A stretch of 63,988 bases of DNA, filler included, from Thelocarpon superellum (taxonomy: Eukaryota): NCBI GenBank assembly GCA_026025795.1. It is 3 parts of 3 records of this genome, joined end to end, with 100 filler letters (N's around TTAATTAATTAA, not from the genome) between each part and the next. Parts side by side here need not be neighbours in the genome. Positions count along the whole stretch, not along the records: positions 23,147 to 46,176 come from JAPEUG010000288.1; 2 more parts are not named here. One strand, given 5' to 3'. Below, piece after piece: positions 19,796-59,267 of this stretch. Both the position numbers and the translations under genes were made by a program. Positions within the stretch are counted from its first letter, which is position 1; the number at the start of each line of letters is the position of its first letter. The notes beneath the pieces were generated by a model. It did no database searches. It was not told the DNA's origin and saw only the letters and a program-made list of their open reading frames with translations.

Positions 19796-22700
19796 ATGCG
19801 TTATTCCTCTGCCTTTCTTCTCGGCAGCCTCGTGAGCCCACTCGCGCACGCCCGGCCCCAGGAGGTCTACGCCAACCAATTCGCGGAAATCTCCGGCCCC
19901 GGTGGCTTCATCCTACAGCCAATCGTCCAGGAGAATGTCATCGTGCAGCTTTATGAGATCAACCAGCAGTTTGACAACAATGCCGTCGTTAATTTCGGGA
20001 ATCAAAACTTCTATACCATCAACAATGCGCCGACCTTCGTGTCGACCATCACCGTGGTTTCCACCTCCACCGTCACCTCGACGTCGCTACTCCCTGTACC
20101 CCCCACCAGCGCGCCAGCCAGCAACGTGGCAGCCCCGACGGGCACCGCACTTCCGACCTCCACCTCGCCCTTTGGCATCATTCCCACCGCCGGGACCTTC
20201 AACCTCTACGCCTCTACAGCCAATGGCGATATCGTGAATTCCCCAATTGGGGAGATCGACGGCGAGATCATCGTGGGCGATGGCGTGACACAACCCGGAA
20301 TCTTCCCCATTGACAGCAACGGGGACTTGTTCGACTCCGCTGGGAACGCCGTCTACGCCAACACCCAGAATGGCGTCAGCCGTCGAAGCCGATTATTCCA
20401 ACGACAACTGCCCGTCATTGGCCTTTTCTACGCCGCCGTCATTGCGGCCACGGCCATCCCGGTCAAGTTTTCGGTATCTGGTATCACCTTGGTGATATCC
20501 AGTGGATCTACCATCTTCAACCAATATATTTGCAACGCAAATCCTTCGCAAGGCGGGCACCTTCTCATTACCGAGGGGCCTGTCCCGCCAGGATGTACGC
20601 CTCTCTTCATCATCGCCGTGAGCGTACCGCCGACAAACACCCGAACCTCGACCACTGTCATCAATACCTCGCAGATGCCACTGTCGACGACCTTGCTGAG
20701 CAGCTTACCATCCACTTTGCCCACTCTCCCACCGACCACCCTCCAGACGAGCATTTCCCTTCCCTCGACCTTTCCCAGTCCCTCTATCACGCTTCCAACG
20801 CAGCTCCCAACCCTGCCGTCGCTGAGCTCGCCGTCATTGCCGTCGTTGAGCTTCCCAACCTTGCCGTCGCTCAGTCTCCCCACGCAGCTTCCGACGCTCC
20901 CATCCTTCAGCCTTCCCACTGCGCTGCCGACCTTGCCGTCGCTCAGTTTACCTTCCCTGAGCATCCCGTCCCTAACGTTGCCATCGCTGAGCTTACCTTC
21001 CTTAAGCATCCCGACGGAATTGCCCTCCTTGCCATCCCTGAGCGTGCCCACGGAGCTCCCAACATTGCCGTCGCTCAGCTTACCATCCCTAAGCATTCCC
21101 ACCGAGTTGCCGACCTTACCGTCCCTCAGTGTCCCCACTGAGCTTCCAACGCTCCCTTCGCTCAGCGTCCCCACCGAGCTCCCGACGTTGCCATCGCTCA
21201 GCCTCCCGTCTGTGAGCATCCCCACCGAGCTCCCGACGTTGCCATCGCTCAGCCTCCCGTCTGTGAGCATCCCCACCGAGCTCCCGACACTCCCGTCGCT
21301 CAGCCTCCCGTCTGTGAGCATCCCCACCGAGCTCCCGACACTCCCGTCGCTCAGCATCCCGTCTGTGAGCATCCCCACCGAGCTCCCGACACTCCCGTCG
21401 CTCAGCATCCCCACCGAGCTACCGACGTTACCCTCCCTTAGCCTCCCGTCCCTCAGCATTCCAACTGAGCTGCCGACATTACCGTCCCTGAGCATCCCGA
21501 CAGAATTTCCAACGTTGCCATCGCTCAGCCTCCCTTCCCTCAGTATTCCAACCGAGGTCCCGACGCTCCCGTCCCTGACGTTGCCATCCCTGAGCATCCC
21601 GACGGAGTTGCCGACGCTCCCGTCGCTAAGCTTACCGTCCCTCAGCATCCCCACCGAGCTCCCGACACTCCCGTCCCTCAGCATCCCCACCGAGCTACCA
21701 ACGTTGCCGTCCCTGAGTATCCCGACGGAGTTGCCCACCTTGCCGTCCTTGAGCATCCCAACGGAGCTTCCGACCTTACCGTCCCTCAGCATTCCAACAG
21801 AACTGCCGACATTGCCGTCGCTCAGCATCCCCACGGAGCTTCCGACCTTACCGCCCCTCAGCATCCCCACAGCACTGCCGACATTGCCGTCGCTCAGCCT
21901 CCCATCCCTGAGCATCCCCACCGAGCTCCCGACGCTCCCGTCACTGAGCCTTCCATCTTTGAGCATCCCGACAGAACTCCCAACGCTTCCATCTCTCAGC
22001 GTTCCCACCGAGTTGCCGACCTTACCATCCCTTAGTGTCCCGACAGAACTTCCAACCTTACCTTCCCTGAGCCTGCCATCTCTTAGCATCCCCACTGAGC
22101 TCCCGACGCTGCCGTCCCTCAGCAATCCAACAGAGCTTCCTACCTTGCCGCCATTGAGCGTACCCACGGAATTGCCGACCTTACCATCCCTTAGCATACC
22201 TACCGAGCTGCCGACGTTGCCATCACTTAGTCTTCCCACCGAGCTGCCGACCCTGCCATCCCTGAGCCTCCCATCATTGAGCATTTCCACTGAGCTACCA
22301 ACACTGCCGTCGCTGAGCCTCCCGACTGAGCTGCCGACCCTACCGTCCCTCAGCCTCCCGACTGAACTGCCGACCTTACCGTCCCTCAGCCTTCCTACTG
22401 AGCTTCCTACGCTCCCGACGCTCCCGTCACTCAGCCTCCCGACCGAGCTGCCAACCTTGCCGTCGCTGAGCGTCCCCACTGAGTTACCGACCCTTCCTTC
22501 AATCATTCTCCCGACCAGCTTGCCCACCCTGCTCCCTTCGGTGCCATTGAGCTGCCAGTCGCTGCTATCATTGGCTTGCGGTCCTACAGAGCTCCCATCG
22601 TTTCCTCTCAGTATTCCCACAGACCTGCCATCCCTACCCCCTGTCAGCATTCCGACGGACTTGCCATCTCTGCCGCCAATCAGTCTTCCGACTGATCTTC

Positions 22701-23046
22701 CAACCCTACCACCAATCAGTATCCCCACAGACCTCCCGTCGCTGCCGCCGATTAGCATTCCCACAGATCTTCCAACGCTACCACCGATCAGTATTCCGAC
22801 AGAGCTTCCGTCGCTACCTCTAAGCATTCCGACAGACCTCCCGTCACTGCCGCCGATCGGCCTTCCCACCGACTTGCCGACGCTGCCACCGGTTAGCATC
22901 CCCACGGACTTCCCGTCGCTGCCGCCGGTTAGCGTTCCAACGGATTTTCCATCACCGCCTCCAATCAGCATCCCTACAGATCTGCCAACGCTTCCCCCCA
23001 TCAGTCTTCCCACCGACCTCCCCACCCTCCCGCCGATCAGTATCCC
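19796..23046 (+). CDS. Secreted or cell-wall protein: signal peptide, ~290-aa globular region, then a long P/S/T/L-rich tandem repeat; 3' end runs into the gap
   Basis: MRYSSAFLLGSLVSPLAHARPQ; INNAPT motif and Cys pair (YIC...PPGC); dozens of PTELPTLPSLSI / PTDLPTLPPISI units. Confidence 0.8.
20790..23046 (+). repeat. Coding minisatellite, 36-bp (12-aa) and 51-bp (17-aa) units
   Basis: PTELPTLPSLS(LPSLS)I array, CQSLLSLAC spacer at ~22553-22579, then PTDLP(S/T)LPP(I/V)S(I/L) array. Confidence 0.95.
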
Positions 23047-23246: not shown

Positions 23247-23300
23247 TTGGGATCTAGGCCATGGCATACCTAGTTGGGATCTAGGCCATGGCATACCTAG
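23247..23300. repeat. Perfect 27-bp direct tandem duplication
   Basis: TTGGGATCTAGGCCATGGCATACCTAG x2. Confidence 0.95.
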
Positions 23301-24175
23301 AGATCCGCCGTTTCATGCACCGGCATCCGGCAGTCGGCACCAGCCACCAGATCGAATGGGCATGATCCCGCAGCGCCGTACGGCATTTAGTACAGCGCGC
23401 AGGCATGGATAGCATGACCTCCGCGTAGGACGAAGTTCCGACCGACCCGGAACGGCTACCAGCATGACCAACAGATTCGCTCGTCGTTGATCTCCACCAC
23501 CTATCGCTTGAGATGCCGGCGGGTTGGATAAAGTTAAAGCAGCAGGGAGGGGGAGGATGGAAACCTTGACCTTTCGCCTCGCCCTAACTCTGGAAGAACG
23601 TCCCTTCACGAAAGTACGAGTACCGTCACATGCGGCGTTACGGTCAAGGCGCGTCTGACAAACTTGCCCTCGCCAGATCATCCTCGCAAGCCAATCCTCG
23701 CATCCGTCAAGGCGCCATCGGCACCTAGGCCGGCTTGACCGGCACGGGCGCTCGAGGGAAAGTGTTCCAGCCAAGTTCGGATCCTTCTGCGCGGGCCGCA
23801 ATACCTCTGCACCTTGATCGCATGAGACCCTGACGATACCAGCCCGGGCACAGGCCTTCCTTATGCAGCGAACGCGTTGCCCGCAGCTATGTTCGCCCCA
23901 CAGATGCCCGTGAGGTGCGCTCGCCATTTCTCGGCGGCCGTCAGCCTTCTGATTCCAAGTCACGTCCCCCAGAGCTGTGTATCTTCATCCTCCTTGTCAT
24001 CCCTATCCTCGTCCGTGTCTTTATCCCCCAGCAGCCGATAATGTCCGCTGGCGGTATCTCTCTCATGACCGTGAGGAGAATCACTCCCACGGCTTGGTGA
24101 GGATCCACCGTGCATTGGATATGCTGTTGGTTCGTGGCTGCCTGTTTCCCCTCAGTGCCTCTCATCACCGCCGGC

Positions 24176-27100
24176 ATGCGTCCGACCATCCTTTCCGCCG
24201 CTCTCCTCGGGCTCCTGACCCTTGTGCTCGCCAAGCCCGGCCCTACGGATGAGCACCTCTCCCCGTCACTTTCGGTGCTCGCGCCTCCGAGCGACCTCCA
24301 CGTTCGCGAGAACGGGTGGCAGCATCGATATCAGAGGGTGCACGACACCTCCGTGCGCCTGGCCTTTACCTTTGCCGCAGCGTCCGCGGTCCACATGTCG
24401 AGCGACGATCTGCGTCTCTTGTTGGCGAGGGGAGGGCAGCGGGTCAGAATCCGTCGACGGGCGGGTCTTGTGCCCCTGGGTCACACTGTCAGATTAGGCA
24501 TCTATAGTGGCTACGCCATCCTCCTGAAAGCGGGAAACGCGCTGCAGCTGACTTGGGGCGACGTCAGCCAATGCATGGCACAGCTGCTGGTGTCCGCGGT
24601 TCAGGAAGACGAGAAACCCTCGGTGTCTTTCGAGGCCCGGATCGTGGATCCGAGTAATGACAAAGTGGTCGCCTCGGTCCTGGTCAAGCCCCTCCACCAT
24701 CGTCCCGCCCAGTCGCTTGGCACCCGAGACACGAGTCTGGAAATGGATCTGGAGCAGGATATGGACATGGTCGTGGTGCATGACGTCGGGAAAGACCCGG
24801 ACAACGGCGATGACATGATCATCTCCCGTGATGCTATGGTATCGGATATCTTCCAGGTGGTCCCGCAGAGTCACGTCCGCCTGGCCTTTTCCTGGCACGC
24901 AAACATCGGTGCCGCCCTCACACGCGATGTGCTCTTTAGGCTCCTGCTCAAGGCACAACACCGACTCTGGATGTTACGCCAGACGGCCCCGCTCATCGGC
25001 CGAGCGGGGTGGGAGCAACGGATCGTGGCCAGCCAGGGGCTGGAGCTGGTGCTACGAATGAGCTCGGAGCCCTTCATGACGTGGGCCGATGTGCTGCGCT
25101 GTGTCGCCATCTTGCTTCGGCACCTCCCGCGTCAGCAGGACGCCCGAGGCCTGCATTTACTCGCCAGCATTGCCCCCCAGGATCCTGCCCTGTCCAGCCA
25201 GGCCGAATTGTCAATCCGGAGCCTGTCGGAGCAAGATGCGGGCAGCCTTCGACGGCGGCACGCAGAGGAAGCCAACTCTGAAGCGGTGCCCGCCGCGCTC
25301 GAGGCCAGAAACGCTGTGTGGCGTTACAACTTTCTTCCCGTGCCGGACACGGCGCTACGGGTGGCCTTTTCATTACATTCCCGCCTTGGCAGGGTCATTA
25401 CTCGAGGCATATTGTTCCGTCTGCTTGCTGGGGCACGGAGGTACCTTGAGGATACGAGCGCCACGGTGCACCCGGAGCAGGAGTTTCCTGAGACAGGAGA
25501 ATACCCCATCTTCGTCGACCAGTCTCTGGCAGTGGTCATGCAGATCACCGGAAGCGCAAGCCTGACGTGGTCCGACGTGGAGAGCTGTCTGCAGCACTTG
25601 ATCAAACATCTTCGTCGTCATCACACCAGGGACGCACATACGACCTTTACCGCCATCTTCGGCCTAAAAAGCAACACGGGGAGCAGAATGCTCAGTGAGG
25701 CCATCCTTTCCATCCGAAGCGCAGCCGAGGTCGCCGGTGGCGGCCATCGACGTTGGCTTTCCGACGTACCCAAGGCCGAGACGCACGCTCCTAGAGATGC
25801 CACCCTCGTCGACCGAGATCGTATGGACCGGCCTGAGTACGGCAGTTCGGCCCCGGATGAAGCCCTGCCGCTTCTCTGCGTTCCGGGGAGTAAGGTCCGC
25901 ATGTCCTGTTCGCTGGATGCCGACATGACATTCGTCATCCGACGAAATGTCCTACGCCGGCTCTTGAGCACTGCCTACAATACATGGCAACGTCTGGCCG
26001 TCTCCGGTGCGCTCATGCCCAACCAACCGGAGCAGCTTCTGGGCACGCATGGGCTCTATCAGCTGGTGCTGGAGACGAATGGACCGTCCTTTATGACATA
26101 TGCCGACGTCTTCCACTGCATCGCGCATTGGATCAGCCGCATCCCTCTTCGTGGCCTGGATTACCCGATGAGGCCGGAGGCCGTTGTTGGTCCAGGGGGG
26201 ACGGGCGACTTCGAGGAGCGAGCGCGATTCATCTTGCGCCAGGCACCGCGCCGACGCATCGGTTCCTCCGAGCAGGGCTCGGATAGACGTCGACGCCGGT
26301 CGGTCGAGGGAAGCCAGGAAGCCGTGGCTACGACAGGAGAGGCGGAACCGGAGAAACTCGCCGCGCGTCACAGCACCTCTCAACCCGACCTTCAGGCCGT
26401 CAGTGGGACGGATGTCCTCATGTCTTTCTCACTCAATCAAGGACACGGTGTGGAGATCCCGATCCAACAATTACGGGCGCTCCTTCGGATCGCGGTGATG
26501 AACCTGGCGAGACGGGCCAGAAGGAACAGCGTGGTGCGCGGCCCGGATACCTATCAGCTGAGTGTCGACGGCGGATTCGCGCTGGTCTTGCACGTGACGG
26601 AGAGTTTTACCAACTGGAAAGACGTCATCCCATGTGTCGGCGGGCTTGTTGCCCAGGTGAACTTTGTCCTCTTGCAAATGTCCCTGACGCGGTTTGCGGC
26701 ATACCTGGGCACGGCAGCCGCAGCATCCACATCACACATCACGGCCGCGTTGGAGGTTCGACGTGCGTCTCAACATGACCCGAACGGACTACGCCGGAGA
26801 GACCTGGTGCGATCTAGCGAGTTGGCGGTCCGCGATGAGGGCTGGCAATATGACCTCCGCCGCGTCGCTGGCACGAATGTGCTCATGTCTTTCTCGTTGA
26901 CGGTTGCACAAGGCCTTCGGGTCCAGAAGCGACAGCTGTTAAGCCTCTTCACGGCCGCGAGGCGTTCGGTGGCGAACAGGCCAAATAACGGAGGCCTCGT
27001 CCCGTCGCGCACGTACCAGCTGAGCAGCAATGGCGCATACGCGCTAGTTCTCCAGGTGACGGAGTCGTTTGGCACCTGGAAGGAGTTGGCAACGTGTCTT

Positions 27101-28282
27101 GGATGGCTAGTCGAGGTGTCAGAAGAGCAAGACGCGACCAACCCCATGCCTTTTGTTGCATACTTGGGCACGGACAACCCGGGCCCTGCGCGCCGAACGG
27201 CGACGTTGGCGATCCGACGTAGCGTTCAGCACGACCCAGGCCTTCGACCAAGAGCGGACGGAGAGAGCAACGAATTGGCGGTCCGTGACGTCCTCTGGAG
27301 ATACAACCTCCAGGCTGTCCGAGGGACAAGCGTGCTTCTATCCTTCTCGACGGCGGTTGCGCCCGGCCTACAGGTGGAGACCCAATTACTGAAGGATCTG
27401 TTGATCAACGCGAGAGACGCGATTGCGTACAGGTTCTCCGCGCAGCTCGCCGAGTCGCACACGTACGAGCTAAGCGTCAGGGGTGGATTCGCCATCATCT
27501 TACGCACCATGGAGGCCTTTACGACGTTCGACCAGCTGGTACCATGCTTTACGGTGATGGTTCAGAGCTTACGCGATGACACTCCGCCATTCGCAAGTTT
27601 CGCCGCCTACCTGGGAAGCGGCGATGAGCCGGAACCGCACATCGCCGCCTCGGTGGAACTCCGCAGCCACGTAACCGCGGCGGGGGATCTAAGAGCCAGA
27701 GTGGCGGACGACGAGGCGAGCAACATGTCGACGTCCCCCGCGGACCTCCTCGCCAAAAGAGGGACCACCGAGCCGGCACAAGCCACGACACGCGACCTGC
27801 AGATACACGTGCGCGAGACCATCCCCGACAGCCTCGAAGGATACAGCAGCGACTCCCGCATTGAGCGGTTCGACGTTCCGGGGACGAAAGTGCGACTAGT
27901 TGTGAATTACCTCCTGACGGATCTGGCTCGGACGGCAGTCATCGACGGATTACAGCACGCGATCGCGTTCGTGACAGGTCGAGTTGGGCCCATTGAAGGA
28001 CTGCATCATTATCCACTTGGCGATGCCCACGACGGCACTACATGGGCAGGTTACAGTCCTAGTGACTCCGACCACCCCGTCACCGCCTTCATATCGCTCA
28101 ATCGATTCGGGGTCATGACATGGGCAGAACTCAAGCTATGTCTCGATCAGCTCCTGCTGCATCTCCAGCTCGTGAGCCCGTTCGATGAGCGCGTCTTGCC
28201 CCTTACTTACATCCAGCCTCTTGATGCTCCGCCTTCGCAGCCGGTTGCGAATCTGATCACTCTTGCTGCTCAAGATACTTGA
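24176..28282 (+). CDS. Secreted 1368-aa protein of eight tandem homologous domains separated by basic (Kex2-like) linkers; family not recognised
   Basis: Signal peptide MRPTILSAALLGLLTLVLA; uninterrupted ORF; each unit has V-x-x-T/S-x-V-x-L/M-x-F near its start and [WYF]-x-[DEQ]-[VL]-x-x-C. Confidence 0.85.
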   Translation: MRPTILSAALLGLLTLVLAKPGPTDEHLSPSLSVLAPPSDLHVRENGWQHRYQRVHDTSVRLAFTFAAASAVHMSSDDLRLLLARGGQRVRIRRRAGLVPLGHTVRLGIYSGYAILLKAGNALQLTWGDVSQCMAQLLVSAVQEDEKPSVSFEARIVDPSNDKVVASVLVKPLHHRPAQSLGTRDTSLEMDLEQDMDMVVVHDVGKDPDNGDDMIISRDAMVSDIFQVVPQSHVRLAFSWHANIGAALTRDVLFRLLLKAQHRLWMLRQTAPLIGRAGWEQRIVASQGLELVLRMSSEPFMTWADVLRCVAILLRHLPRQQDARGLHLLASIAPQDPALSSQAELSIRSLSEQDAGSLRRRHAEEANSEAVPAALEARNAVWRYNFLPVPDTALRVAFSLHSRLGRVITRGILFRLLAGARRYLEDTSATVHPEQEFPETGEYPIFVDQSLAVVMQITGSASLTWSDVESCLQHLIKHLRRHHTRDAHTTFTAIFGLKSNTGSRMLSEAILSIRSAAEVAGGGHRRWLSDVPKAETHAPRDATLVDRDRMDRPEYGSSAPDEALPLLCVPGSKVRMSCSLDADMTFVIRRNVLRRLLSTAYNTWQRLAVSGALMPNQPEQLLGTHGLYQLVLETNGPSFMTYADVFHCIAHWISRIPLRGLDYPMRPEAVVGPGGTGDFEERARFILRQAPRRRIGSSEQGSDRRRRRSVEGSQEAVATTGEAEPEKLAARHSTSQPDLQAVSGTDVLMSFSLNQGHGVEIPIQQLRALLRIAVMNLARRARRNSVVRGPDTYQLSVDGGFALVLHVTESFTNWKDVIPCVGGLVAQVNFVLLQMSLTRFAAYLGTAAAASTSHITAALEVRRASQHDPNGLRRRDLVRSSELAVRDEGWQYDLRRVAGTNVLMSFSLTVAQGLRVQKRQLLSLFTAARRSVANRPNNGGLVPSRTYQLSSNGAYALVLQVTESFGTWKELATCLGWLVEVSEEQDATNPMPFVAYLGTDNPGPARRTATLAIRRSVQHDPGLRPRADGESNELAVRDVLWRYNLQAVRGTSVLLSFSTAVAPGLQVETQLLKDLLINARDAIAYRFSAQLAESHTYELSVRGGFAIILRTMEAFTTFDQLVPCFTVMVQSLRDDTPPFASFAAYLGSGDEPEPHIAASVELRSHVTAAGDLRARVADDEASNMSTSPADLLAKRGTTEPAQATTRDLQIHVRETIPDSLEGYSSDSRIERFDVPGTKVRLVVNYLLTDLARTAVIDGLQHAIAFVTGRVGPIEGLHHYPLGDAHDGTTWAGYSPSDSDHPVTAFISLNRFGVMTWAELKLCLDQLLLHLQLVSPFDERVLPLTYIQPLDAPPSQPVANLITLAAQDT

Positions 28283-28872: not shown

Positions 28873-28971
28873 CACTCACTCACTCACTCACTCACTCACT
28901 CACTCACTCACTCACTTACTCACTCACTCACTCACTCCTCACTCACTCACTCATTCACTGACTCACTGACT
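28873..28971. repeat. (CACT)n tetranucleotide microsatellite
   Basis: ~24 near-perfect CACT units downstream of ERG9. Confidence 0.95.
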
Positions 28972-54460: not shown

Positions 54461-57400
54461 ATGCCGGCGGAAGACGAGCCTCACCGCGAGAGGGAGGTGG
54501 ATCTGCGCCAGTCCACGCTGGGAGCCCTCGTGGCGGTGCCGCCGCCGCCGTCGGCCGGGCTACCGCCGAAAACGCACCGCGTCAAGCCAAGCCCTGCAGC
54601 CGCAAACCTGCCGCGCCGTCCCCTGCAAGGCGTGCCACCCGCCGACCGGCGTCGCCACAACTTCGTCTTCGCCACGGCGCGCGTGAGTGCGAAGGCGATG
54701 GCGCCGCGACCGGCGCCCAAGGCGCAACGACCATCTGCTCCCCCTCCACGCTCTCGCCCTCGTCCATCCATAGCGACGCCGGCGCTCGCGCTCGCGCTCG
54801 CGCTCGATCGTACGCCGCCCGTCAACGCGCCGCGGGCTCCGGCCGCCATGCGTCGTCCGGTCGGTGGGAAAGCGGGTCCGGCTGCAGGTCTGGCGCCGCC
54901 CAGCCCCGCCGGAGCGAAGCAGCCCAAGCCGACCTTCTATCGCCCTGCGCCCACGCCGGCCGTCGTCGGTCCCGTACCCGCCAACCCTTCGCCCAAAACC
55001 CATACGCGGGCCAGCGCCGGCGACGAGAGCTGGCGAGCCAATCCCGAGATCGCGGTCAGAGTCCGCGGGCTGCCCAAGACCATCACGACGCAGGAGGTCT
55101 GGGACATGCTCCACGCCTACGGCGCCATCGACTTCATCGAGCTCTTCGAGGACCGATCCGGTCAGAAGGATGGGTGCGCACGCATTCGATTTCGGTACGT
55201 GTCCGGTTGGTTCCATGATGAAGACGGTCCCACTGATGACGTGCAGGCCTCCTCCCGCCGCGCCGTTCTGGACGCACGCTCACGCTGTGCCGGCCGCAGT
55301 CCCAGGGGGTCGAGCGACGCCGGTGGAGATGATGCTCGAGCGTGCCCGCGTGGGGATGGTCCCGCATCCGGCGAAGCCGCACATGCGGCTGGCGGAACGA
55401 ACGGTGGTGCCCATCGAGCGCATCGACTTTGGCTTCATGTCGGACGTCATGACCATGACGGCCATGCATCGCACCGTGCGCGACGGGGACATGAGCATGG
55501 TCCTGGACTTCAATCTGGACCGACGCGAGATGGACATTCAGTTTGACCTCGCCCTGGTCGATCCCCGCGATCCCGGCGCGAAAGCAGCCCGCCGCGTCGT
55601 GTCGATGGCGGACCTGGACCGCGGCGTGGGCGGTCTCAATCGGGTCGAGCGATACCGCTTCCGCATCCCGCTCGAGCAGTTACGCACGATGCACCAAGTC
55701 GGGCAGACGGCGCGAACGTCGACCGTGGTCATCAGCCTCGACTCCCCGCCCAATTTCTACCGCAAAGCCGTCGGCCAGCAGATGGAGAGCAGCCACGAGG
55801 GAGGCGCGAGCACGTGGAGCGAGTGGGACACGTGGTACCGCACGACGGATATCGTCTACGATCCCACCACGCTCCGCCACGCCCCCCTGGCGCTGCAGAA
55901 GGCGCGGCCGGTGATTGACATTGGCCGCTGGACCACCTATCGACTGGAGCTGACGCGCGGCACCAAGCCCTATCAGAGCGTGGAGAGCCTGTGCGCCGCG
56001 CTCGCCGCATACAACGTGCCCGTGCATCCCGCGCCCGAGCTCCGGGTGGTGGAGCAGGCGGGGCCGGCGGTGTGGGAGTGGCTCGATCCGCCCGTGCACG
56101 TGCCCCGCGCCGGCACGTCGTCCTTGGCCTCGCTGGCCGACCTCCAGGCGCCGCCCCGGCCCCGCTTGGACTTTGCGGTGCGGTATCAGCTCGAGGTGTG
56201 CCTCTCGCACGGCTACTTGAACGAGTACGCCCTCGGGGAGGAGTTCCTCGCACGCCTGGCGCGGCTGGAGAAGCGGCGCGCGGTCGGGCTCCTGGAGCAG
56301 GTGGCGTTGCGGAAGCAGCGCGTGTACCGGCCGCTGAGCGTGTTTGCGCCGCAATACCTCATCCACGCGCCCGTGGCCAAGCCCAAGATCCCGGCCTACT
56401 GCATCCACGCGCGCAAGGCCATCGTGACGCCGAGCACCATCTACTTCGCCTCGCCGCAGGTCGAGACGTCGAACCGCGTGGTGCGGCGCTACCTGGAGCA
56501 CGCGGACCGCTTCCTGCGGGTGCAGTTCACGGACGAGAAGTTCCAGGGCCGGATCCACAGCAGCAAGAGGACGAGCAACGAGGTGCTCACGCGCATCCAG
56601 CGCACCATGGTTAACGGCATCACGGTGGGCGCGCGGCACTTTGACTTCCTCGCCTTTGGCAACTCGCAGTTCCGCGAGAACGGGGCGTACTTCTTCGCGC
56701 CGACGCCCTACCTCTGCGCCGCCGACATCCGGGCGTGGATGGGCAACTTCAGCAAGATCCGGGTGCCGGCCAAGTACGCCGCGCGCCTGGGCCAATGCTT
56801 CTCCACCACGCGCGCCATCCACGGCACGCGCGTGCAGATCCAGGAGCTGGACGACGTCACCACGCCCTACACGACGACCGACGGCCGCGCGGCCCGGTAC
56901 ACCTTCACCGACGGCGTCGGCAAGATCTCGGACTTCTTGGCGCGGCTGGTGGCCAGCGAGCTGAGCCTGCCGTCGGTGCCGTCGGTGCTGCAGTTCCGCC
57001 TCGGCGGCTGCAAGGGCGTGCTGACGACGTGGCCCGACGCGCGCGACCGGGCCATCTACATCCGTCCCAGCCAGTACAAGTTCCCGGCCATCCACAATGG
57101 CCTGGAGATCAACCGCTGGTCGCAGTTCAGCGCCGCCGCGCTCAATCGCCAGCTCATCGTGGTCTTGTCGGCGCTGGGCGTGCCGGACGAGGTCTTCCTC
57201 CGCAAGCAGGCCAAGATGCTCGCGGACATTGAGGAGGCGGCGCGGGACCAAGCGCTGGCCGTCACGCTGCTCGGCAAGTTTGTCGACCCCAACCAGATGA
57301 CGCGCACGCTGGCGGGCATGATCCTCGACGGCTTCATGACGCGCGACGACCCCTTTGTCGTGTCGCTGCTGCAGCTGTGGCGCGCGTGGTCGATCAAGTA

Positions 57401-59267
57401 CCTGAAGGAGAAGGCCAAGATCCTGGTGGCGGACGGCGCCTTCCTGCTCGGTTGCACGGATGAGACGCAGACGCTCCAGGGCCATCGGACGGCGGCGCAG
57501 CCCGGACCGGACGCGACGGCGGCGCAGCGGCTGGCGTCGTTGCCGGAGATCTTCCTGCAGGTCCCGCGCCCGGGGACGGATGACGGGGGGTACGTGGTGG
57601 TGCAAGGCGTGTGCGTCTTGGCCCGCAATCCGTCGCTGCACCCGGGCGATGTCCGCGTGGTCCGCGCCGTCGACCAGCCCGGGCTGCGCCATCTGCGCGA
57701 CGTCGTGGTGCTTCCGCAGACGGGCGACCGCGATCTGGCCAGCATGTGCTCGGGCGGCGACCTGGACGGCGACGACTACATCGTCATGTGGGACGAGGAC
57801 CTGATCCCGCGCGAGTGGAACCACGCGGCCATGGATTACACGCCGGCCCAGCCGGATCCCCTGGACCGGGGGGTGACGACGCGGGACATCATCAACTTCT
57901 TCGTCAACTACATGAAGAACGACCAGCTGGGCAAGATTGCGACGTCGCATCTCGCGCACGCCGACCGGTTCGGGGTCAAGCATCCCAAGTGCCGACGCCT
58001 GGCCGAGCTGCACTCGGACGCGGTCGACTACGCCAAGTCGGGCAAGCCGGCGGCGATGGAGAAGGAGCTCGAGGCGCGACAGCGGCCGCATTTCATGGAG
58101 AGCCGGTATCGGTCCAAGGATCGGACGTACGTGTCGGACCAGGTGCTGGGCAAGCTGTACGATCAGGTGCAACGGGTCAAGTTCACGCCGCACTTTGGCG
58201 GCGCCTTTGACGCGCGCATCCTCCAGGCGCATGCGCCGTCCGCAGCCACGCTCAACGCGGCGCGCGACATCAAGGTCCTGTACGACGCGGACATGCGCCG
58301 GATCATGGCGCAATACGACGTGGCCACGGAGTTTGAGATCTGGACGACCTTTGTGCTGGAGTACTCGGCCACGATTCGCGACTTCAAGTTCCACGAGGAG
58401 ATGGGCCAGATCTCCACGGCGCTCAAGGACCGCTACCGCGCCAAGTGCACCGAGCAAGCCGGTGGCCACGACCGCGACGCCCTCGCCCAGTTCGTCGTCG
58501 CCATGTACACCGTCACGCAGCAAGAGGTCGCCGCCGCCGTGGCCGACCACGCCCAAGGATACGAGGGCGGCCCGCCGGGCGTCCCCGTCCCGCCGTGGGA
58601 TCCCAAGTCGATGCCCTTGATGAGCTTCCCGTGGATCTTCCATCAGCTCCTTGGGAAGATTGCCAACCACGATTACCAGGCCGAGCTGCCGCTGTGCCCC
58701 CCCGCGCCCACGGCGCGCCCGGGAACGACGGCCGGGCGGACGGTGCGGAGCGAGGGCCGGGACGACGCGACGGCCGTGGTGGAGGAGGAAGACGTCCTGG
58801 AGACGGCCGACGGATTGACCCATCGTGGCGATTTGCTCCAGCTCTTCCAGCACGACGCCCCGTCGGTCGAGGCCCTGGGCGTGGCGGCGCGCGCCCCGTC
58901 CTTGGCCGCATCGGACACGGGCTCGGTCGGGCGGGTGGATCTCCTGACGGGCGATCGAGAGCCCATGCCCGCCTTGACCCAGGACGTGATTGAGCTGACG
59001 TCGACCCATGATGCGTCGGGCTTGGAGCCGGAGGAGGAGGATCATGGCGACCTGATCGACTTTGGTCCGATGCCGGAGTCAACGGGCCACCGGGTAGACA
59101 TGGCGTCGGATGACCGCGCTTCATCCCCTCGGACGCCGGAGCCCGTGGATGATCTGTCGGGGCCCAGGGAGAAAGACGACGAGGACGTGGGGGTGGAGGT
59201 GGTTGACTTGGATCTCGGCGGAGAGTTTGCGCTCGACGTGCTGCAACGCCTGCTCGACGAGGCGTAG
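54461..59267 (+). CDS. RNA-dependent RNA polymerase (eukaryotic RNAi RdRP, probably SAD-1/Rdp1-like) with N-terminal RRM; intron 55195-55246; start codon tentative
   Basis: RRM VRVRGLP...IDFIELFED...ARIRF; FLAFGNSQFRE, ARLGQCFSTT, FTDGVGKIS, QFRLGGCKG, RNPSLHPGD, catalytic CSGGDLDGDDY, LHSDAVDYAKSG. Confidence 0.95.

What the first reader, a model, noticed from the sequence alone, without database searches (positions are those of the whole stretch)
24176..28282. Eight-domain secreted polyprotein with Kex2-like linkers: candidate one-gene cassette of effector or toxin proteins
Seen: after a signal peptide, eight diverged ~140-150-aa units start near 24300, 24825, 25305, 25865, 26365, 26825, 27280 and 27810. 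Every unit has a Cys at the same position: LTWGDVSQC, MTWADVLRC, LTWSDVESC, MTYADVFHC, TNWKDVIPC, GTWKELATC, TTFDQLVPC, MTWAELKLC. Each also has an early strand of the V-x-x-T/S-x-V-x-L/M-x-F type (e.g. VPDTALRVAF, VAGTNVLMSF, VPGTKVRLVV). Most linkers carry basic clusters (SLRRRH, GHRRW, DRRRRRS, GLRRRD, LAKR), and most units are preceded by L/H/E-x-x-R-type sites (DLHVR, LEAR, ELAVR twice, IHVR). Known: fungal Kex2 cleaves after KR/RR, and LxxR pro-domain sites occur in fungal effectors. Kex2-processed repeat proteins (KEPs) usually release short peptides, not whole folded domains. Inference: one intron-less gene may release up to eight different paralogous ~15-kDa proteins. I recognise no family for the domain.
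Basis: partly seen in the sequence, partly recalled or inferred. Interest (0 to 1): 0.8.

Follow-up and report, generated by a model that had tools for sequence, protein, structure and literature searches.

The report
Eight-domain secreted KP4-fold fungal polyprotein
One fungal gene encodes a secreted chain of eight diverged domains whose predicted shape resembles the antifungal killer toxin KP4, each bordered by conserved protease-site motifs, so the cell probably cuts it into up to eight different small proteins, a one-gene cocktail whose cutting and activity are still untested.

The parts
24176..28282 (+). Single open reading frame, 1368 aa, about 151 kDa precursor
   Evidence: one copy in the genome, G000:C210:1030-5133
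24176..24232 (+). Signal peptide, aa 1-19 (judged from the sequence; no SignalP available)
   Evidence: basic start, hydrophobic core with 9-residue hydropathy 2.9 against at most 1.5 in any linker
24233..24307 (+). Pro-peptide, aa 20-44, ending in LHVR
24308..24727 (+). Unit 1, predicted product aa 45-184, 15.4 kDa, pI 10.3; Cys133; ends in LGTR
24728..24829 (+). Acidic spacer aa 185-218 (net -9), ends in IISR; no dibasic site in this linker
24830..25258 (+). Unit 2, aa 219-361, 16.1 kDa, pI 11.2; Cys309; ends in LRRR
25259..25309 (+). Spacer aa 362-378, ends in LEAR
25310..25753 (+). Unit 3, aa 379-526, 16.5 kDa, pI 9.8; Cys471; ends in RR
25754..25816 (+). Spacer aa 527-547, ends in LVDR (site off the usual register)
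25817..26254 (+). Unit 4, aa 548-693, 16.4 kDa, pI 8.6; the only unit with three Cys (568, 578, 648); ends in RR
26255..26368 (+). Spacer aa 694-731 with a run of five Arg, ends in LAAR
26369..26800 (+). Unit 5, aa 732-875, 15.6 kDa, pI 10.7; Cys820; ends in LRRR
26801..26833 (+). Spacer aa 876-886, ends in LAVR
26834..27253 (+). Unit 6, aa 887-1026, 15.5 kDa, pI 10.0; Cys974; ends in LRPR. The unit that was modelled (KP4-like fold)
27254..27286 (+). Spacer aa 1027-1037, ends in LAVR; no dibasic site
27287..27700 (+). Unit 7, aa 1038-1175, 15.1 kDa, pI 5.2; Cys1124; ends in LRAR
27701..27814 (+). Spacer aa 1176-1213 with LAKR, ends in IHVR; holds the only N-glycosylation sequon
27815..28279 (+). 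Unit 8, aa 1214-1368, 17.0 kDa, pI 4.7; Cys1322; most diverged unit, with an insertion before the second helix

Best explanation
The gene is a secreted polyprotein built by internal duplication of one domain that carries its own L/I-x-x-R processing site. The signal peptide takes the 151-kDa chain into the ER, the eight domains fold independently, and in the late Golgi the fungal kexin cuts after the L/I-x-x-R or RR sites on both sides of each spacer, removing mostly acidic spacers and releasing up to eight different 15-17 kDa proteins in equal amounts from one transcript. The products have a KP4-like alpha/beta sandwich that has lost the disulfides of KP4 and Ecp2 and keeps one Cys in the second helix. 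Six of the eight are basic, two acidic. By analogy with KP4-fold proteins they most likely act outside the cell against competing fungi or on a host or partner. Shown: frame, homology of units, motif enrichment and register, kexin gene, predicted fold of unit 6. Inferred: secretion, cleavage, the fold of the other seven units, and all activity. My odds: KP4-clan fold 0.8; cut into separate domains at most linkers 0.65; antimicrobial or effector role, given those, about 0.6-0.7.
Confidence: 0.55

Rival explanations
1. The protein is secreted largely intact (only the N-terminal pro-peptide is removed) and works as a multivalent string of eight glycan- or surface-binding domains, like tandem DUF26 ectodomains or the LDL/Y3/Gnk2 lectins; the internal L/I-x-x-R sites are relics copied with the duplicated unit.
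Against: The sites are kept in register in units only about 20-28% identical while the rest of the linker has no common sequence, which a neutral relic would not survive; a second site sits after the domain in 6 of 7 units; five linkers have canonical RR or KR in exposed polar stretches.
Confidence: 0.17
2. The chain is cut, but the units stay together as a hetero-oligomer, through sheet-to-sheet contacts or disulfides between the single conserved Cys residues, so the product is one assembled toxin or binding complex and not a cocktail of free proteins.
For: Seven units have one unpaired Cys at an invariant position. Zt-KP4-1 is in a monomer-dimer equilibrium (PMC12382754, passages); CCTX2, whose effector domain has a KP4-like core, stays assembled after Kex2 cleavage (PMC13324453, passages). 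Six basic and two acidic units.
Against: The Cys lies in an amphipathic helix next to conserved hydrophobic residues and may simply be buried; linker lengths vary from 27 to 64 aa, which argues against a fixed assembly geometry.
Confidence: 0.15
3. The units are released as proposed but are not KP4-clan proteins: the match reflects a common two-helix, antiparallel-sheet arrangement and the domain is an orphan of other function.
Against: The top five VIA rows of 48,161 chains all belong to one clan (KP4, Zt-KP4, DUF26, Y3, Gnk2), the two best cover over 90% of the target, and unrelated rows near the top align only about 45-60 residues.
Confidence: 0.09
4. The frame is an assembly artefact, a set of fused separate genes, or a silent relic.
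For: No RNA evidence; no listed contig spans the whole ORF; single copy with no relatives elsewhere.
Against: Overlapping contigs of run X1 tile most of the ORF and three runs of a second study hold pieces of it with few differences and no indels; no internal signal-peptide-like stretch in any linker; first and second codon positions are better kept than third between units.
Confidence: 0.04

Closest known systems
KP4 structural family: UmV-KP4 (1kpt), Zt-KP4-1 (8acx), Ecp2/Hce2, and the Pfam-less groups 3 and 4 (PMC12382754, passages)
   Same: Small secreted alpha/beta sandwich with two helices on an antiparallel sheet; best structural matches to unit 6; groups 3 and 4 also lack Pfam matches.
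   Different: No KP4 or Hce2 Pfam match; one Cys per unit, where Zt-KP4-1 has two and UmV-KP4 five disulfides; eight copies in one chain.
Fusarium KP4L-4 (two non-identical KP4 domains; PMC9506348, passages) and Hce2 class II (up to 800 aa; PMC7441637, passages)
   Same: Internal duplication of a KP4-fold domain in one secreted protein.
   Different: Two domains, 283 aa at most, and no passage on cleavage in PMC9506348 (0 hits for 'cleav'); here eight diverged domains with sites on both sides of each spacer.
Kex2-processed pro-domain (K2PP) effectors such as SnTox3, ToxA, SIX1/4/6 (PMC8528282, main text)
   Same: L-x-x-R site between a polar pro-region and a folded domain.
   Different: K2PP effectors have one N-terminal pro-domain; here the pro-domain plus domain module is repeated eight times.
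KEX2-processed repeat proteins, KEPs (PMC6339444, PMC7329392, passages)
   Same: Signal peptide, internal repeats, processing sites between repeats.
   Different: KEPs are defined by KR/RR/KK sites and identical or nearly identical motifs, mostly 9-24 aa; motifs up to 352 aa occur but with few repeats. Here the repeats are folded domains 14-44% identical and the conserved site is L/I-x-x-R.
Ustilago KP6 preprotoxin
   Same: One precursor gives two subunits of similar fold (fold similarity from PMC12382754 passages; Kex2 processing of KP6 is recalled, not from a call).
   Different: Viral, two subunits, KP6 fold.
KP4-like secreted protein expansion in the lichen fungus Xanthoria parietina (10.1101/2024.08.16.608140, passages)
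   Same: 47 secreted proteins of KP4-like predicted fold, 18 up-regulated in thalli: the fold is used as a diversified repertoire outside plant pathogens.
   Different: Described as separate proteins; the passages read mention no polyprotein. Whether the present fungus is a lichen former was not determined.

Membership tests
KP4 (PF09044) / Hce2 (PF14856) sequence families | Match to the Pfam profile | tested here: not met
   0 families for the whole protein and for 8 of 8 units; the same library recognises 2 of 2 of the genome's own KP4 proteins tested
KP4 (PF09044) / Hce2 (PF14856) sequence families | Three or four conserved Cys forming intradomain disulfides (PMC12382754) | tested here: not met
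   one Cys in 7 of 8 units, three in unit 4
KP4 structural superfamily | Two helices packed on an antiparallel sheet, superposing over the whole domain on KP4 or Zt-KP4-1 | tested here: met
KP4 structural superfamily | [quoted passage not shown] | not testable with these tools
   model coordinates are not returned; implied only by the full-length superposition
KP4 structural superfamily | Antifungal or calcium-linked activity (shown for groups 1 and 2 only) | not testable with these tools
   needs protein
K2PP effectors | Signal peptide, polar pro-region, KR/RR or LxxR before a folded domain | tested here: met
   aa 20-44 end in LHVR; repeated before all eight units
K2PP effectors | Removal of the pro-domain by Kex2 shown | not testable with these tools
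   kexin gene present; cleavage untested
KEPs | Signal peptide and at least three internal repeats | tested here: met
KEPs | KR/RR/KK site between successive repeats | tested here: inconclusive
   5 of 7 inter-unit linkers have one, 2 do not; 12 of 26 KR/RR sites lie inside the repeats
KEPs | Identical or nearly identical repeated peptides | tested here: not met
   units 14-44% identical, 122-136-aa cores
Gnk2/DUF26, LDL, Y3 lectins | Fold match and glycan binding | tested here: inconclusive

The most novel reading that the evidence does not exclude
A fungus packs a whole diversified repertoire of KP4-fold antimicrobial or effector proteins into one polyprotein gene: each module is a K2PP unit (spacer, L/I-x-x-R, folded domain), kexin releases eight sequence-orphan, disulfide-free KP4-like proteins of differing charge in fixed ratio, and the acidic spacers keep the basic domains quiet until the Golgi. 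This would be a eukaryotic stand-in for an operon and, with the six-domain case noted elsewhere in this scan, a third class of Kex2 substrate beside peptide KEPs and single pro-domain effectors, one that small-secreted-protein filters miss.
Probability: 0.35. Interest if true: 0.8.

Novelty: new variant of a known kind. Interest (0 to 1): 0.6.

Why it matters
Effector and antimicrobial-protein surveys usually look for small, Cys-rich secreted proteins (own knowledge); a 1368-aa protein with 10 Cys and no Pfam domain would be passed over, yet it may yield eight such proteins. It offers a direct test of how well kexins use L/I-x-x-R sites (eight pro-side sites with different P2 residues in one substrate), shows that the KP4 fold may persist without disulfides, and supplies eight natural variants of one scaffold for asking what decides target range in KP4-like proteins.

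Tried and rejected
Sequence relatives: none in Pfam, PDB sequences, 1.84 billion representatives (the two other hits, P0002 and P0003, are unrelated tandem-repeat proteins whose short weak matches add up), or the 5.8-billion-cluster set at near, longer and shorter lengths (word-limited, so weak evidence). JGI metagenome contigs: 284 pattern matches, 0 confirmed. Own genome: 7 of 8 units used singly (unit 5 was not) and the whole protein found only this locus; two weak hits, L034 and L035, did not score with the unit profile. ESM Atlas: unit 6 gave nothing at 0.9 or above; units 2-3 gave three unnamed ascomycete clusters of 297-334 aa at 0.86-0.87, a lead only. Viral structure library: nothing useful. 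The unit 7-8 tandem model failed (pLDDT 45), so linker disorder and the fold of unit 8 were not tested by modelling; its helix and strand order was similar. Hce2 profile search of the genome found nothing and had no positive control. No RNA holder listed. Polymorphism is too sparse to show selection: 15 listed positions in the ORF, 6 synonymous and 9 non-synonymous taken singly (two share a codon), against 75% non-synonymous sites; 11 further rows were not shown. The unit tree has no well-supported fork; units 5-7 group at 82/88. No complex prediction was obtained, so dimerisation through the Cys is open. The dibasic clusters were considered as the main signal and rejected. Paper searches for a multi-domain Kex2-processed KP4 precursor found no description; the library lacks most subscription papers, and supplementary tables that could list such proteins (KEP tables of PMC6339444, listed but not read; the FHAT lists; Xanthoria Data S4) were not seen.
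Full report
Setting. The window is from a fungal genome of 19.2 Mb in 797 contigs. Neighbouring ORFs match squalene synthase, a DnaJ-X protein, Abp2, RPC82, an M16 peptidase, an IMS-family polymerase and an RNA-dependent RNA polymerase, ordinary housekeeping genes that point to an ascomycete (inference). The finding lies about 1 kb inside contig C210, after an N gap, and is followed by the squalene synthase gene on the opposite strand. I did not determine the species or its lifestyle.

24176-28282 (+) is one frame of 1368 codons with no N or stop, while the other five frames have 29-51 stops. It starts with a signal-peptide-like stretch (hydropathy 2.9 over nine residues; no linker exceeds 1.5, so there is no internal signal peptide). 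Eight units align with an invariant Val, Cys and Ala. Pairwise identity is 14-44%; units 5, 6 and 7 are closest (36-44%), then 2 and 3 (32%). Leave-one-out profiles score units 1-7 at 66-119 bits and unit 8 at 13, against shuffled maxima of 5-11. Between units, first and second codon positions are better kept than third in 7 of 7 pairs compared, as expected of coding sequence. The protein has 10 Cys: one per unit, three in unit 4.

The gene is real DNA in more than one sample. Five runs from two studies hold it or parts of it; one may be the source of the assembly, the other four are moss metagenomes of one study. Laying four of them showed overlapping X1 contigs along most of the ORF, and short low-depth pieces from X2-X4 with few differences; no indel was listed and none of the 15 listed substitutions in the ORF makes a stop or touches an L/I-x-x-R site (11 rows not shown, no contig spans the whole ORF). 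No RNA run was listed, so expression and the absence of introns are untested.

The domain has no sequence family. Pfam, PDB sequences, a full HMMER scan of 1.84 billion representatives, three word-based searches and a metagenome scan found no relative, nor did searches of the own genome with seven single units. The only lead is three unnamed ascomycete clusters of about 300 aa at feature scores of 0.86-0.87 for units 2-3.

The processing signal. With cores fixed from the alignment (1016 aa) and linkers between them (328 aa), KR/RR occurs 14 times in linkers and 12 in cores, and 5 of 8 linkers have one, which 18% of within-linker shuffles match. L/I-x-x-R is the stronger signal: 15 sites in linkers, in 8 of 8 linkers, against 2.9 sites and 2.6 linkers in shuffles, 0 of 20,000 reaching either; length-matched windows from 11 other ORFs give 3.2 sites. 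In six units the Arg stands exactly 11 residues before the invariant Val with Leu or Ile at P4 (LHVR, IISR, LEAR, LAAR, LAVR twice); units 4 and 8 have LVDR and IHVR further upstream. After the domain, six of seven units have an Arg site ending 17-18 residues past the last-strand Ala (LGTR, LRRR, HRR, LRRR, LRPR, LRAR), and unit 4 has PRRR nearer. Each spacer is thus bounded on both sides, and cutting there gives eight products of 138-155 aa, 15.1-17.0 kDa, six with pI 8.6-11.2 and two with pI 4.7-5.2, and spacers of net charge -9 to +1. Cautions: the sites share ancestry with the units, the motif was picked after looking, I chose the cut points, and 17 L/I-x-x-R and 12 dibasic sites lie in cores, mostly on helices or strands but in units 1 and 5 on the loop after helix 1.

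The enzyme is there. The genome has one kexin with subtilase and P domains and a hydrophobic stretch near its C-terminus. Kex2 prefers Leu or another aliphatic residue at P4, tolerates variation at P2, and removed LxxR-type pro-domains of fungal effectors in vitro (PMC8528282, parts 1 and 2 of 3 read). LEAR is the conserved site of the BP antifungal family (PMC13525654, passages), and one of the eight KP4 ORFs of this genome has LTAR at its pro-domain border.

Mechanism. Most likely the chain enters the ER, the domains fold one by one, kexin cuts on both sides of the spacers in the late Golgi, and up to eight different KP4-like proteins are secreted from one transcript. A role against competing fungi or on a host or partner is inferred from the clan: Zt-KP4-1 inhibits fungal growth, KP4 is linked to calcium uptake, and a lichen fungus has 47 KP4-like secreted proteins. 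Rivals are an intact multivalent lectin-like chain (0.17), a cut but assembled oligomer, perhaps through the single Cys (0.15), a released domain of unrelated nature (0.09) and artefact (0.04).

Comparison and novelty. The ingredients are known: KP4-fold families without Pfam marks, a two-domain KP4 (KP4L-4; PMC9506348, passages), Hce2 class II proteins to 800 aa (PMC7441637, passages), K2PP effectors, and KEPs, whose predicted motifs reach 352 aa though long ones have few repeats (PMC6339444, passages; PMC7329392, passages). The review of processed effectors names two classes, peptide precursors and single pro-domain effectors; this protein fits neither fully. Five searches found no description of a many-domain, Kex2-processed KP4-fold precursor, and term look-ups in PMC9816061, PMC13525658 and two lichen preprints showed none; supplements and subscription papers were not seen.

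Verdict. A real, well-formed gene; a new variant of known kinds. Interest 0.6: the architecture is unusual and directly testable, but cleavage, expression and activity rest on inference and the fold match is moderate.

Noticed in passing
window 19796-23046 (+): ORF with a signal-peptide-like start and about 780 aa of Pro/Thr/Ser/Leu/Glu repeats (36- and 51-bp periods) that runs into the N gap at the contig end; no Pfam match. Looks like a mucin-like wall or surface protein.
   Followed up: partly
G000 contigs C195, C250, C201, C44, C450, C245, C557, C224 (L014-L021): Eight matches to the KP4 family in a 19-Mb genome, each in a short Cys-rich ORF with a signal-peptide-like start: an expanded canonical KP4 repertoire beside the polyprotein.
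   Followed up: partly
window 25402-25495: Run X1 carries six differences from the window clustered in unit 3, one removing an in-domain RR: a second allele or strain in that run.
   Followed up: partly
L022:1174-3765 (G000:C31): Kexin gene in two frames separated by a probable short intron inside the P domain; a thioredoxin-reductase-like ORF follows (recognised by eye).
   Followed up: partly
window 55170-59267 (+): 1365-aa eukaryotic RNA-dependent RNA polymerase (PF05183), presumably of the RNA-silencing pathway.
   Followed up: no
window 24041-24175: An out-of-frame ATG at 24121 lies between donor-like GTGAGG sites (24071, 24097) and an acceptor-like site ending at 24155: possibly a 5' UTR intron (read by eye).
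   Followed up: no
window 23247-23300 and 28873-28971: An exact 27-bp tandem duplication near the contig start and a CACT microsatellite of 25 copies downstream of the gene.
   Followed up: no
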